From: Eledone cirrhosa
Taxonomy: Eukaryota
Length of the DNA: 64,000 nt
NCBI GenBank assembly: GCA_964016885.1
Contig: OZ024743.1
Span: 257,238,001-257,302,000 of the forward strand
Direction of reading: 5' to 3'
Shown: positions 8,595-45,441 of the stretch, piece after piece
How the letters are laid out: each line of letters opens with the position of its first letter
Numbering within the stretch: the first letter of the stretch is position 1
Notes under the pieces: model-generated
Seen by the model: only the letters and a program-made list of their open reading frames with translations
Database searches by the model: none
Told to the model about the DNA's origin: nothing
Translations under genes and position numbers: made by a program

Positions 8595-9690
8595 TGTAAA
8601 ATGACGTGGTTAATAACTTAAATCCATTCTTTAATTTCTACATCTGTTTCAATGTGGTTACAATAGTATATGCATATGAAAACAATCAGACATAATTAAT
8701 TAGTAATTAACACTCTAAATAATGCAAATACTGAATTTCTTCAGGAAATCTGAGAAGGAACAATGTTTACCAAATTCAAATGTGTTAAGAATAAACCCCA
8801 TACCAAACCCTGGGTGTAAAGCAAGCAATTAAATTTAAAAAACAGATTGTACATGAATTTAAATTTTAAAATGCATGTTACTAACAGTGTAATATGAATT
8901 CAGCCAATTCAACCTTCTACGCACATTGTATCTTCAAACCAGATTAATATTAGTATTAATGATAATCTATGTATGTTTCTTATATATATTTTTTTTACAT
9001 GCAATGCTCACTGCTGCCTCTTAAATAAGTTTGTTTCCCTTAAATTGCTTTCCACTCTTGCATATCTAACTAACAACAAGTATTATACTAGCTATATAAG
9101 GAAAAAAATGAATAATAACATTATGAATAATAACGGTTGCTTATTTAGGCACAAGGTCAGCAATTTGGGGGGAGGGTCGATGAAATGGACTCCAGTGCGT
9201 GACTGGTACTTTATTTTATCGAGCCCGTAAGGATGAAAGGCAAAGTTAACCTCGGCGGGATTTGAACTCAGATCATAAAGGGCCATAACTCTTTGCTGCA
9301 AAGCATGGTGTCCGACCCTCTACCGATACTGCCAATCCACCGCCCATTATGAATTATAATGATGTAATGCTGTTACCTCAACGTATAATCACAACTTTGC
9401 ATGTTACAACAACTCCATGTACAATCAGTTTTTATATTTGATTGCTTGTTTCACGCACAGTGTTTGATATGGGTGTATTCTTATAACTTTTTTGAATTTG
9501 GTAAACTATGTTCCTTCTCCCATTTCCTGAAGAAATGCAGTTACATGTGTTATGTATAGTGTTAATAATCAGTAATTAATTATTTTGATTGTTTTCATAT
9601 GCATGTACTATTGTAATCATATTGAAACTGATGTAGAAATTAAAGAGTGGATTTAAGTTATTAAACTTTGTCTTTTGTCATTTTGTATAT
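8595..9690. repeat. Diverged inverted repeat (arms ~8595-8860 and ~9410-9690), each arm carrying a hammerhead motif; SINE inserted in the spacer
   Basis: Arms are reverse-complement similar (e.g. AATAACTTAAATCCATTCTTTAATTTCTACATC vs GATGTAGAAATTAAAGAGTGGATTTAAGTTATT). Confidence 0.8.
9522..9640 (+). ncRNA. Hammerhead ribozyme motif, type I, long stem II (mirror copy 8634-8749 on -)
   Basis: ATTTC-CTGAAGA-(~90 nt)-GAAA-CTGATG-TA-GAAAT. Stem I ATTTC/GAAAT. The mirror copy has GAAA-CAGATG-TA. Confidence 0.6.
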
Positions 9691-11311: not shown

Positions 11312-11714
11312 TATACGTGTGTGTGGCCATCCATAATATGTTCCATAATTTAGTAGTTTAACAAATGGAGACCAATAAATTAAATAGCATCCTGGAAACA
11401 ATAAATACTGAGGTCGTAATGATCAATTTACAGGTACCACCCATTTTTTCAACTGAGTGGACTGGTGCAATGTGAAATAAAGTGTCTTGCTCAAGGACTC
11501 AACCCTATACCAGGAATCAAACTCACAACCTTACGATTATGAACCAAATACCCAAAACACTAAGCCTAGTACCTTTACACACACATATATATAAAATATG
11601 TATACATACATACATATATATATATATATGCAAAAGTTCTATTTAAATTGTTGGGATACAACAAGCAAATATTTTTATAACTGATATAAAGCACTCGACA
11701 AGTATTTGGAGTAA

Positions 11715-12229
11715 ATATACGATATTAACAAATGGAAACTATATTTATAAAACCATATCTATTTTATTATACATATTTCAAGGATACCATGTTAAATTAT
11801 GGTATGCTTTCATCAGACAAAATACAATATATACCAGTTTTATAAATAAATATTGACATACCCTTTCAAAATGCAACTGTTACTTTTGGAAGACATCAGG
11901 GATAGTGGATTTGTTTATCTTAGTAAGTCGTTGTGTTACGGAGAAGGAAAAAGACGGAGAGAGAGAAAAAAGAGAAAGAAAAAAGACTTTTCTCTCTCTC
12001 CTTCCTTTTCCTTCTCCGTAACACAACGACTTACTAAGATAAACAAATCCACTATCCCTGATGTCTTCCAAAAGTAACGGTTACATTTTGAAAGGGTATG
12101 TCAATATTTATTTATAAAACTGGTATATTTGTCTGATGAAAGCATACCATAATTTAACATGGTATCCTTGAAATATGTATAATAAAATAGATATGGTTTT
12201 ATAAATATAGTTTCCATTTGTTAATATCG

Positions 12230-12235
<6 letters not shown>
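11715..12235. repeat. ~520-bp near-perfect palindrome (PLE pLTR/retrozyme-like), hammerhead in each arm
   Basis: Arms ~11715-11968 and ~11987-12235 are reverse complements; this is why ORFs 11853+ and 11880- translate almost identically. Confidence 0.92.
11760..11824 (-). ncRNA. Minimal type I hammerhead ribozyme (mirror copy ~12126-12189 on +)
   Basis: TATTTTGT-CTGATGA-AAGCATACCAT.aatttaac.ATGGTATCCTT-GAAA-TATGTA-TA-ATAAAATA. Confidence 0.8.
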
Positions 12236-12324
<89 letters not shown>

Positions 12325-19063: not shown

Positions 19064-20256
<1,193 letters not shown>

Positions 20257-21560: not shown

Positions 21561-22140
21561 CTGCTATCGTCCTCAGTTAGGGTCATAAAACTATCAAGTC
21601 CCTATCTCCCAATAGCTGTAAAAGACGCTGGACATCAATCAAATCTGTAGAATTACAGTCGGTCACAGTTAATGTGAGTGGGTACACACACACTCACACA
21701 CCGACGCGAGGTCAAAGAAAAGATATATATATATACATATACCAACATAGCATCAAATCTGTAGAACTATAGACGGTCACACTTAGTATGAGTACACACA
21801 CACTCACACACACACCGACGCGGTGTAAACTAGTTGTAAACTAACTTTCGGTGAATACTATGTTGGTATATTTATATTTTTTCTTTGACCTCGCGTCGGT
21901 GTGTGTGTACTCACTCACACTAACTGTGACCGTCTATAGTTCTACAGATTTGGTGCTATGTTGGTATATGTATATATATTTTTTTCTTTGACCTCGCGTC
22001 GGTGTGTGAGTGTGTGTACCCACTCACATTAACTGTGACCGAGTGTAATTCTACAGATTTGATTGATGTCCAGCGTCTTTTACAGCTATTGGGAGATAGG
22101 GACTTGATAGTTTTATGACTCTAACTCAGGACGATAGCAG
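21561..22140. repeat. Inverted repeat with internal ~110-bp sub-repeats
   Basis: 21561-21822 is the reverse complement of ~21893-22140. Both outer ends carry CTGAGGA/CTCAGGA-CGATAGCAG (5' half of a possible hammerhead). Confidence 0.85.
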
Positions 22141-36468: not shown

Positions 36469-38467
36469 TTAAATTAGAAATTTAAAATCTTTCAATATCT
36501 TATTAACATCCAAAATCATTAGAGCAAACTCCACAAGATGTCTGTCTTCTTTGCTCATTTAATCTCGCGAGGGTCATGGGGAAGAGCTCTTAGATGCACC
36601 TTTCAGATGGTGCTATCAGAAAAGAAATATTTCCAAATGATCTGGCTGTATCCTGAAACAAGACCAACTGAGCTTATGGATGTTATCCAACTGTTATGCT
36701 CATGGTCTACACCTGGTTCTCCTGTTGATTGGCTTTGCCCATAAAATCTATCAAGCATTTCTTTCTTTAGACATTCTAACTATATGTCTGATGTGTCAAG
36801 CGTTAATAACCTGGTAAATGCTGACATGTAGTAGCAACGAGTAACAGGCAATTGGCATGCATGCAAATTACCCAGTCTTGGCATTGGTGACTCTGGATAA
36901 CTTTAGTAAAATCGAAGGAGCTAGAATCCTGTTTAGCCTTCATGCAACATATCCTCCATGAGTCCACCACTAGATGACATTTGAAATTTAATGAATACAA
37001 GAGAACATTTTTTCTAGTAAGATTAAAGAAAAAAATGATAGGTAGTATTGGAGACAGATATATATTTTTAAAATATTATCATATCTTTCTATTAAATTTG
37101 AAATTTAATAGAACCCACACACATAAATCAAATATTACATTGAAGATTTAAGAAAACAAAGGTGATAGACACTGCTATTAATCAGTCTGGTTCTTAGTTT
37201 GATTATAAAATGTCCTGCTGTAGGACATTTTGTCTGTCAGATTCTAAAGACTAAATATGTGGGTGGAATTGTCTTGTATTTATAACAATGAAGCCATACT
37301 GTATTTCTTTCCACCTGTTGCCTTGAAGAAATTATCTTACATCTGTATTTTTACAGAACTCTTAACTAATATTTTTTTTCAATTTACTTTACAACCTCAA
37401 CTGCAGACATGATTCCCAAAGTAGGGGTGCTGGGGGTTTAAAGAGTGGCACAGGATGAAATGTATTCTCTAAAACAGGAGCAGTTGCACCACAAATATGA
37501 GAATCTGTCTTTAGATCTTTCCATTATATTTAAAATTTAATAAACATTTTCTTCTTCTTTTCTTTGCCCACTTATTTCTAAGAGAGTCTTTTCAGAAGCA
37601 ACCATCTCCAACCGATCCAACTGTATCCCATTTAATGAACATGAACAATAATATTGCATTTTTATAAAAATTGAAGTTGGAAAACTTATGAGTGCCTCAT
37701 TTTTTGTCCTTATATGACATGAATAGTGTGTGTCTCCTATAGATGAGTTGGGAAACCACAAGGAGAACCTAGATATAAAACCCCTACAAATTTGTTCATC
37801 CATACAAGGATACTGCCATGAACATTTGTCTATGAATACGGAAATTCAACAAATATAACATTAAATTATATTATACTGTTTAACCAGATGTTTTATTAGA
37901 GAAAAAAAATAAAATATCAATCAAAGAGTAATTGAGTACCTGTTTATTTCATAAAGGATTAAATGGTTTAAAAAGTTTAGAGATATCTGATGTAGACATA
38001 AATGAGTGATAGTTTTAAATGTTTAGTGATCTCTGAAGTACAGTTTCACATTCAGTGTAGAACAAATTTTATACATAATTACAACTAAGCTAACTGATTA
38101 TATTATCAGGCAGGGAGCTGTATCCACTCTTTGCTTGTTTTTATGTCATTGTTCAGTAAAAACCACATTTTAGAAGTTGTCGTGACATCAAAACATTTTA
38201 CAATGTATAAAAATAAATATTTAATTGTTTCCACTTTAGGGACAAGCCAGCAATTTGAGAGGTGGGTAGGGGGGGGGGGGGGGTCGATTAAATTAAGTTT
38301 ACTGATACTTTATTTTATCGACCCCATAAAAATTAAAGGCAAAGCTAACCTCGGCAGGATTTGAAATCACAACATAAAGAGACGTAATTCAATGCAAGCA
38401 TGGTTTCCAGCACTCTACTGATACAGCCAATCCACTGCTCTTACAATAATAATAATATATATATATG

Positions 38468-38930
38468 GAATTAGTATTGGTGTTCTGAAATAGCGATGTA
38501 TATTTGAATGTACGTATAGTATATTTGATAATATACTGCATATTTATTTAAAAACATTTTCAAGACCATTCGCTATGAATTTTAAAGTAGTGACTATGTC
38601 ACATACTTAGTCTCAGCAAAAGCAAAGGGAAGTAATCGACGGTCCCATTTCTTGCTCATAAGCAGTTGTCAAGACTAGATACCCTCTCCGCTTCTGCCGA
38701 GAATTATAGAAACTGGATTCTTATGGAATTCCAGTTATGTTTAAGAGCTGTTTAAACAGAGCAGTTGCCAGCTCAGCAAAGATTAGAATTTAGTATTGGT
38801 GCACTGAAATAGTGATGTATATATGAATGTACACATAGTATATTTGATAATATACTGTATATTTTAAACCATTTTGAAGACAATTCGCTATGCATTTTAA
38901 AGTAGTGACTAGATTACATACTATATATGT
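38468..38930 (-). mobile_element. Diverged relative of the 310-bp retrozyme-like unit (~319-bp period, ~1.4 copies), decayed hammerhead 38632-38677
   Basis: Minus strand TAGTC-TTGACAA-cTGCT.tatg.AGCAa-GAAA-TGGGACCG-TC-GATTACTTCCC; collinear with the 19087-19400 monomer. Confidence 0.8.
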
Positions 38931-44689: not shown

Positions 44690-44902
44690 TTATATAAATA
44701 TACCGTCTAACCCATGCTAGCGTGGAAGATGGACGTTAAATATGTATACATATATATATAAATGGAATAGAATGAAACGAAATTTCATTTCTCACTCTTA
44801 GTACGGCACTTACTTAAATGTAAGTATGTATACGTACAGACATATATGTATACAGACGTACAGTAGTATGTATATATATACATACATGCACACATATATA
44901 TA

Positions 44903-45433
44903 TGCACGTATCGGTTTACCGAACATTTATTATAACAGCCCGAATTACGCCGTACAGTGTTTAGGCAACCACGTCACCTTTTTGTTCAACACTGACACAG
45001 GAACGATGTACTAGTTTCAAGCTTATTAGCTATTGTCAGCATCGTATACCTTCCTGCCAGATGGTTGAACGTCTGAAAGTATATACTTTCCTTATGCATA
45101 TTAACGGCTGAGCAGCCTAATTTGCATATCGAGTGAGTTCAGCCGGGTGCACTGTACGGCGTAATTCGGGCTGAACTCACTCGATATGCAAATTAGGCTG
45201 CTCAGCCGTTAATATCCATAAGGAAAGTATATACTTTCAGACGTTCAACCATCTGGCAGGAAGGTATACGATGCTGCTGATGATAGCTAATAAGCTTGAA
45301 ACTAGTACATCGTTCCTGTGTCGAACAAATAGGTGACGTGGTTGCCTAAAGACTACCGCGTAATTCGGGCTGTTTGTTTGTAAACAAACAAACCGAGCAT
45401 TATAATAAATGTTCGGTAAACCGATACGTGCAT
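44903..45433. mobile_element. ~530-bp palindrome of a ~199-bp hammerhead-bearing unit (HHR 45268-45313 +, 45003-45045 -)
   Basis: ACGATG-(ctg)CTGATGA-tAGCT.aata.AGCTt-GAAA-CTAG-TA-CATCGT; GTAATTCGGGCTG recurs at 45161 and 45360. Confidence 0.85.
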
Positions 45434-45441
45434 ATATATAT

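What the first reader, a model, noticed from the sequence alone, without database searches (positions are those of the whole stretch)
38468..38930. Diverged sister unit preserves the RNA fold by compensatory and G-U changes
Seen: the ~319-bp unit is collinear with the 310-bp monomer but clearly diverged. On the HHR strand, the long stem TCTCGATAAAAGC/GCTTTTATCGAGA becomes TCTCGGCAGAAGC/GCTTTTGCTGAGA, fully paired only if G-U is allowed. AGAATATT/AATATTCT becomes AGTATATT/AATATACT. HHR stem II changes from TTCT/AGAA to TGCT/AGCA, while GATTACTTCCC after the cleavage site is kept. Inference: selection acted on a single-stranded RNA structure of the whole unit, not only the ribozyme, as expected for a replicating structured RNA family with subfamilies.
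Basis: partly seen in the sequence, partly recalled or inferred. Interest (0 to 1): 0.75.

Follow-up and report, generated by a model that had tools for sequence, protein, structure and literature searches.

The report
Retrozyme lineages keep fold, swap core
This is a worn, likely dead copy of a small jumping repeat whose four related families in this animal genome changed many letters but kept their base pairs, including a swapped pair in the core of a predicted self-cutting RNA, so the folded RNA was likely what selection preserved.

Summary
The stretch is 1.43 units (38467-38922, minus strand) of a 317-320-bp non-coding repeat with a type I hammerhead layout, i.e. a non-LTR retrozyme. The genome holds four related families (A young; B, this one; C; E). 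Structure selection is real between families: with helices fixed beforehand, family E keeps 26 of 26 pairs in the ribozyme arm (7 double changes) and 49 of 50 outside it (2 double changes). But changes private to copies are neutral (G-U 182, A-C 178); one of the two quoted G-U pairs is CpG decay; outside the arm the support is modest and equal on both strands. Insertion ends look Penelope-made. Arm and backbone give discordant distances, suggesting a ribozyme-arm exchange. No RNA data; cleavage untested. Known class and known core variant; this scan had already noted the U3-A8 family at other loci of this genome.

The parts
38467..38922 (-). whole insertion: 1.43 head-to-tail units of family B (subfamily B3), 5'-truncated, 3' end abutting (AT)n
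   Evidence: partial unit 86% identical to the full one
38471..38789 (-). full 319-bp unit, GC 0.35, no ORF over 66 aa in or around it
38790..38922 (-). upstream partial unit (3' 133 bp of the repeat)
38611..38702 (-). ribozyme arm: 13-bp long stem (38690-38702 with 38611-38623) carrying the hammerhead at its tip
38666..38672 (-). hammerhead core strand UUGACAA, the U3-A8 covariant of CUGANGA
38652..38665 (-). stem II with a C-A mismatch at the 10.1-11.1 position
38638..38651 (-). GAAA, short near-palindromic stem III and GUC; predicted cut between 38638 and 38637
   Evidence: cut site inferred from hammerhead numbering
38632..38678 (-). stem I (38673-38678 with 38632-38637); outermost pair broken (C-C) in this copy
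38518..38537 (-). backbone hairpin H8; two double changes and one G-U across families A, B, C, E
38540..38557 (-). backbone hairpin H7; one double change in family E
38713..38735 (-). backbone hairpin H3; one double change A vs B/C, register shifted in A
19087..20171 (.). sister family A insertion: 310-bp units in two back-to-back arms, canonical C3-G8 core

Best explanation
The stretch is a decayed 1.43-unit genomic copy of a high-copy, non-coding 317-320-bp repeat family (B) whose minus-strand RNA is predicted to fold into a branched structure with a type I hammerhead ribozyme carrying a U3-A8 core pair, and which was likely copied into the genome from a self-cut, probably circular RNA by Penelope-like retrotransposon enzymes. 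Shown: the repeat, four related families, their compensatory changes, the core swap, the end pattern and neutral decay of copies. Inferred: tandem transcripts cut themselves at GUC (probably helped by pairing of two ribozymes through the short near-palindromic stem III), monomers are ligated to circles, and a Penelope-type reverse transcriptase starts at one of two sites about 27 nt apart and runs more than once round the template. Only source lineages whose RNA still folded and cut left new waves of copies, so pairing was kept between families while each inserted copy then decayed without selection.
For: Hammerhead layout on one strand in all four families, with Rfam Hammerhead_HH9 as best-E hit for family E (E 0.0018, 21.7 bits, below gathering 52) and weakly for A (E 0.11). 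U3-A8 in 34 of 36 B units, C3-G8 in 17 of 17 A variants, 28 of 32 C units and 21 of 28 E units; 28 of 30 loci picked by whole-unit similarity read U3-A8; exact patterns: 183 U3-A8 matches against 1 C3-G8 match with a B-type stem II, which is an unrelated element. Held-out test, helices fixed before family E was read: C to E arm 26 of 26 pairs kept, 7 double changes (null 1.1-1.8, p 0.0002); backbone 49 of 50 kept, 2 double changes (null 0.13-0.35, p 0.002-0.04). In 19 of 30 B loci the unit's own tail lies directly before its start, so the unit closes on itself with no ORF. 3' ends pile up at unit positions 288-290 (41 of 145) and 315-317 (39 of 145); 38 of 108 insertions are two-armed and 20 of these 38 have one early and one late end (counted by eye); 73 of 145 ends abut (TA)n. 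This matches the partial tandems, inverted 5' copy, 30-40-bp tail and (TA)n preference described for Penelope-like elements (10.1101/2021.04.23.441226, passages). An abundant RT plus endonuclease-like element with its own minimal hammerhead motif is in the genome.
Against: No cleavage or circle was measured. The B core has a C-A or A-A mismatch at 10.1-11.1 (33 of 36) where G-C is described as highly conserved (PMC4209133); Rfam finds no hammerhead in this copy. With structures predicted from one family alone the backbone result is mixed: pairs kept p 0.007 (B1 to A) and 0.0005 (C to A) but 0.18, 0.23, 0.81, 0.12 in the other four directions, and the arm itself misses 0.05 in 1 of 6. G-U versus A-C across families is 7 vs 4 overall (p 0.27); 5 vs 0 needs a split into helix-interior positions made after looking. 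Circular folding energy is as good on the opposite strand (-78.2 vs -77.3 kcal/mol). The one Penelope-like family examined shares no sequence with the unit beyond low-complexity matches (listing cut at 20 rows), so the partner is not identified. In a preprint 8 of 9 predicted Xenopus retrozymes did not cut in vitro (10.64898/2026.07.22.740005).
Confidence: 0.85

Rival explanations
1. The unit is the pseudo-LTR (or its remnant) of an autonomous Penelope-like element, and the copies are truncated ends of that element, with the fold selected in the autonomous parent.
For: Ends, inversions and (TA)n targets are Penelope-like; U3-A8 was first seen in animals in Penelope-associated hammerheads (PMC4209133); a preprint derives retrozymes from pLTRs; Penelope-like ORF pieces lie in the flanks of 3 loci.
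Against: In 19 of 30 B loci the sequence before the unit start is the unit's own tail; the three ORF pieces lie at different distances and orientations and that family's 3' region is unrelated; family A forms long pure arrays.
Confidence: 0.08
2. Only the ribozyme arm is selected as RNA; the backbone hairpins are kept as strand-neutral structure (cDNA or DNA hairpins recognised at insertion) or are repaired by template-switch mutation in short inverted repeats.
For: Backbone G-U vs A-C is 2 vs 2; keeping of folding energy in the backbone is the same on both strands (z -2.8 to -4.4 vs -2.8 to -4.8); several backbone hairpins shift register in family A.
Against: Long-range backbone helices H0 and H6 are nearly invariant across families; published retrozyme circles are predicted to be highly self-paired throughout (PMC7229834). 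This rival is compatible with the retrozyme identity and only limits the 'whole unit as RNA' claim.
Confidence: 0.3
3. The repeat spread as DNA (satellite or MITE-like unit), and the hammerhead is a passenger relic.
For: Family A forms near-identical tandem arrays; both strands fold well.
Against: The core is kept, with a tertiary-pair swap, over four families whose arms are only 50-76% identical; copies are 5'-truncated at scattered points and have fixed 3' ends; no terminal inverted repeat of the unit.
Confidence: 0.03
4. The family also replicates RNA-to-RNA like a viroid, and the fast paired evolution of the arm reflects that.
For: The arm changes 2-5 times faster than the backbone on four of five branches while keeping pairs; RNA-RNA replication is raised as a possibility for mussel retrozymes (PMC7229834).
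Against: No hammerhead was seen on the opposite strand (by eye and Rfam); family A is almost invariant over thousands of copies and in four other runs (one difference), unlike an RNA quasispecies; relaxed sequence constraint explains the rate.
Confidence: 0.05

Closest known systems
Metazoan non-LTR retrozymes of coral, mussel and axolotl (Cervera and de la Pena 2020, PMC7229834; passages and section 14 read; preprint 10.64898/2026.07.22.740005, parts 1-3 of 5 read)
   Same: 170-400-nt non-coding unit, GC under 50%, type I hammerhead, tandem and monomer copies, several families per genome, highly self-paired predicted fold, coexisting Penelope-like elements.
   Different: U3-A8 core and a mismatch at 10.1-11.1 in family B; four lineages of different age allow a covariation test that those texts, as far as read, do not report; two-armed insertions with two fixed ends; expression and cutting not shown here.
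U3-A8 hammerhead variants (Perreault et al. 2011, PMC3088659, passages; about 1,300 motifs in Schistosoma Penelope-like elements, PMC4209133, parts 1-2 of 4 read)
   Same: Same compensated swap of the C3-G8 core pair, reported as active in vitro in the paper cited by Perreault et al.
   Different: Here it is fixed in one retrozyme lineage with full-length stems I and II, between sister lineages that keep C3-G8, so it is likely a derived state with near relatives to compare.
Penelope-like element insertions (10.1101/2021.04.23.441226, passages)
   Same: 5' truncation, partial tandems, inverted 5' arm, a tail on one end only, (TA)n targets.
   Different: No ORF; tail about 27 nt rather than 30-40; no sequence match to the one autonomous family examined.

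Membership tests
non-LTR retrozyme | type I hammerhead motif in each unit | tested here: met
   three stems and core located; Rfam HH9 weak hits for sister families, none for this U3-A8 copy
non-LTR retrozyme | unit of about 170-400 bp, GC below 50%, non-coding | tested here: met
   319 bp, GC 0.348, longest ORF in the region 66 aa
non-LTR retrozyme | tandem or partial-tandem copies dispersed in the genome, no LTR structure | tested here: met
non-LTR retrozyme | self-cleavage of the RNA | not testable with these tools
   needs in vitro transcription; hammerhead fold lies within 1.5-7 kcal/mol of the arm's minimum in the six sequences folded
non-LTR retrozyme | expressed as linear and circular RNA | tested here: inconclusive
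   no RNA holder listed; only contigs could be laid
hammerhead, canonical core | C3-G8 pair or its compensated U3-A8 form | tested here: met
   U3-A8 in 34 of 36 B units
hammerhead, canonical core | G10.1-C11.1 pair at the base of stem II | tested here: not met
   C-A 24, A-A 9 of 36 B units; U-U in the young family A, A-U in C and E majorities
Penelope-like element pLTR | unit flanks an RT-endonuclease ORF at a fixed junction | tested here: not met
   sample of fetched loci only
Penelope-mobilised element | inverted 5' arm, one-sided tail, microsatellite targets | tested here: met
   against passages
viroid-like replicon | RNA-to-RNA replication, ribozymes in both polarities | tested here: inconclusive
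   no opposite-strand hammerhead seen; replication itself not testable

The most novel reading that the evidence does not exclude
Retrozyme lineages exchange the ribozyme arm as a module: the currently active family A is a B-related arm grafted onto a much more distant backbone, with the breakpoints at the base of the long stem, and the four lineages form a natural series showing that a whole small circular RNA, with a U3-A8 core and a mismatched 10.1-11.1 pair, can be selected for fold and stay mobile.
Probability: 0.3. Interest if true: 0.6.

Novelty: new member of a known kind. Interest (0 to 1): 0.36.

Why it matters
It gives direct evolutionary evidence, from four successive lineages in one genome and a neutral internal control, that retrozymes are selected for a working ribozyme fold and, more weakly, for backbone hairpins. 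It supplies matched natural variants (C3-G8 vs U3-A8; four states at 10.1-11.1; stem III of 2-5 bp) for testing what a hammerhead needs in a mobile element, shows that canonical-core searches miss a whole family, and points to possible module exchange between circular-RNA lineages. The class and the core variant are already published.

Tried and rejected
Rfam at gathering level on the window: 0 hits; no hammerhead hit for this copy at E up to 10. Run search with the family A monomer: no RNA holder listed; the runs laid were contigs only, gave one variant position for A and say nothing on expression, strand or circularity; the 'goes back 310' joint fits DNA tandems too. A-to-G editing scar: none (A>G 117 of 8009 A sites, T>C 126 of 7617 T sites, p 0.33). 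Lower decay in the core of B copies: 6 observed vs 11-12 expected, p 0.05-0.08, not relied on. First family sorting misassigned B and C rows and was redone; helix offsets were corrected; the A row was truncated and was replaced from then on (307 of 310 bases in columns). P values rest on helices picked with A, B and C in view and are optimistic; searches are the fair tests. Five segmental-duplicate rows of 90 were dropped before counts; 2 of 30 E loci were duplicates. Helices H5, H5o and H4b were left out for family A in the G-U count because they are out of register. Alignment A1 had a mis-phased C row and was not used. Pfam named nothing in two ORF pieces and only a sub-threshold RT match in a longer one; calling that element Penelope-like rests on recalled motifs plus its terminal minimal hammerhead. 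Paper searches: 'hammerhead'+'U3-A8' 1 paper, 'U3A8' 0, 'retrozyme'+'cephalopod' 1 listed, a Penelope paper, retrozyme recombination listing only, no title on arm exchange among 12 of 46 listed; supplements were not read and could hold such variants.

Full report
Observation. The stretch aligns with the 310-bp monomer at 19077-19510 at 72% identity over 448 columns and holds a 319-bp unit (38471-38789) plus a 133-bp partial unit, 86% identical to it. The insertion runs 38467-38922 and its 3' end abuts (AT)n. GC is 0.35 and the longest ORF in the region is 66 aa. The window lies in a 3.0-Gb genome; earlier scan notes call it a cephalopod, which I did not test.

Families. A search with the unit gave 3302 first-look candidates, 40 scored, 79 matches at about 83-89% for full-length copies. 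Exact patterns count 5044 matches for a canonical core (the 100 listed are all family A), 183 for a U3-A8 core, 355 for a family C motif and 466 for a family E motif; reversed-pattern controls were 0 each time. These are lower bounds. Of 90 distinct units extracted, 5 segmental duplicates were dropped and 85 sorted into A (17 variants), B1-B4 (20, 6, 4, 6) and C (32); 28 E units were added later. Divergence from the own majority is 0.5% in A, 3.9% in E, 5.5% in C and 4.7-6.7% in B at non-CpG sites, 11-22% at CpG sites in B (the E figure is over all sites). The window copy is a B3 copy. B looks extinct: only 11 exact matches to the B1 core region, none in tandem.

Ribozyme. The arm at 38611-38702 is a 13-bp stem, a second short stem and a type I hammerhead: stem I, UUGACAA, stem II, GAAA, short stem III, GUC. 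This is a family trait: 34 of 36 B units, and 28 of the 30 loci that were picked by whole-unit similarity, while A (17 of 17), C (28 of 32) and E (21 of 28) have C3-G8. A C3-G8 core with a B-type stem II occurs once in the genome, in an unrelated element. C3-G8 is a base pair of the folded core, and U3-A8 is a known natural covariant reported active in vitro (PMC3088659, passages; PMC4209133). It can only be selected on the RNA of this strand, so it is the strongest strand-specific evidence. Stem III is short and near-palindromic in all families, the layout described as favouring dimeric cleavage. Against full activity, position 10.1-11.1 is C-A or A-A in 33 of 36 B units, and Rfam finds no hammerhead in this copy though weak HH9 hits in E and A; the young, recently mobile family A has U-U there, so a mismatch is compatible with spreading.

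(1) Copy level: changes private to 96 B, C and E copies give G-U 182 and A-C 178 at Watson-Crick pairs, and stems decay as fast as unpaired sites (0.049 vs 0.051). Copies are neutral after insertion. (2) Family level, arm: with helices fixed before E was read, C to E keeps 26 of 26 pairs with 7 double changes and B1 to E keeps 26 of 27 with 12 (p 0.0002 against both permutation nulls). With structures predicted from one family alone, pair keeping has p 0.003-0.047 in 5 of 6 directions and 0.12 in one. (3) Family level, backbone: C to E keeps 49 of 50 pairs with 2 double changes (H7, H8; p 0.002-0.04), B1 to E 49 of 51 with the same two. Single-family structures give p 0.007 and 0.0005 towards A but 0.12-0.81 in the other four directions, partly because hairpins in A sit at the same places in a shifted register. 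A register-free test (folding energy against 25 permutations of the substitutions) gives z -2.8 to -4.4 on the ribozyme strand and -2.8 to -4.8 on the other. (4) Strand: G-U vs A-C states across A, B1, C, E are 7 vs 4 (p 0.27), 5 vs 0 inside helices (p 0.03, split made after looking) and 2 vs 2 outside the arm. So structure is kept over the whole unit, but single-stranded RNA of this polarity is indicated only for the arm.

How copies are made. In 19 of 30 B loci the unit's own tail directly precedes its start, as in this copy, so the template crossed the unit junction and the predicted cut site: a circle or an uncut multimer, which DNA cannot tell apart. Among 108 insertions 38 are two-armed, 3' ends cluster at unit positions 288-290 (41 of 145) and 315-317 (39 of 145), 20 of the 38 have one early and one late end (my count from the list), and 73 of 145 ends abut (TA)n. 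Penelope-like elements are described with the same features and a 30-40-bp one-sided tail, and are proposed as the mobilisers of retrozymes. An abundant element with RT-like ORFs up to 1218 codons and a terminal minimal hammerhead motif is present (33794 candidates), but it shows no homology to the unit, so the partner is inferred by class only.

Arm versus backbone. B is 89-93% identical to C and E in the backbone (B1) but 57-72% in the arm, while A is about 72% to B1 in both. Sites grouping A with B outnumber A-only sites in the arm (11 vs 9) but not in the backbone (6 vs 50); p 0.0002, or 0.006 when paired changes are collapsed and misaligned columns roughly discounted by hand. The arm is the faster part on four of five branches and the slower part only on the A branch. 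The simplest reading is that A combines a B-related arm with a distant backbone; rate shifts or saturation are not excluded with four taxa. On either reading U3-A8 is likely derived within B.

Comparison and verdict. It meets the sequence-level criteria for a non-LTR retrozyme (PMC7229834); cleavage and circular RNA could not be tested (no RNA holder listed). The class and the U3-A8 variant are published, and this scan had noted a 320-bp U3-A8 retrozyme at other loci of this genome. What this work adds is the controlled covariation test, the separation of real compensation from CpG decay, and the arm-backbone discordance. Papers seen: PMC7229834 passages and section 14; PMC4209133 parts 1-2 of 4; 10.64898/2026.07.22.740005 parts 1-3 of 5; PMC3088659 and 10.1101/2021.04.23.441226 passages; others as search listings only; no supplements.

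Noticed in passing
window 19087-20171 and loci L031-L086: Family A insertions are nearly always two back-to-back tandem arrays of almost identical 310-bp units (5044 core-pattern matches); likely the currently or recently active wave.
   Followed up: partly
L241 (G000:C2:267641675-267644702): An unrelated hammerhead-bearing element in a long palindromic arrangement, also with a U-U pair at 10.1-11.1.
   Followed up: no
L186-L210: Very abundant young RT-bearing element with a minimal hammerhead motif about 160-365 bp after the endonuclease-like ORF end (motif found in 23 of 25 loci).
   Followed up: partly
L092 152-1868: A family A two-armed array sits directly against a family B insertion, suggesting insertion at the (TA)n end of an older relative.
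   Followed up: no
window 38274-38459: A common dispersed repeat (also at 9167-9366, 75% identical) lies just beyond the 3' end of the insertion; probably a SINE-like element (recalled, not tested).
   Followed up: no
runs X1, X2, X6: Family A assembles as a single closed 340-nt contig in runs labelled as other organisms, with one shared difference from the window; the kind of run is not on record, so trace DNA or related species cannot be told apart.
   Followed up: no
window 11712-12237, 21561-22140, 44894-45441: Several other 500-600-bp palindromic (two-armed) repeats in the window, possibly other Penelope-made insertions.
   Followed up: no
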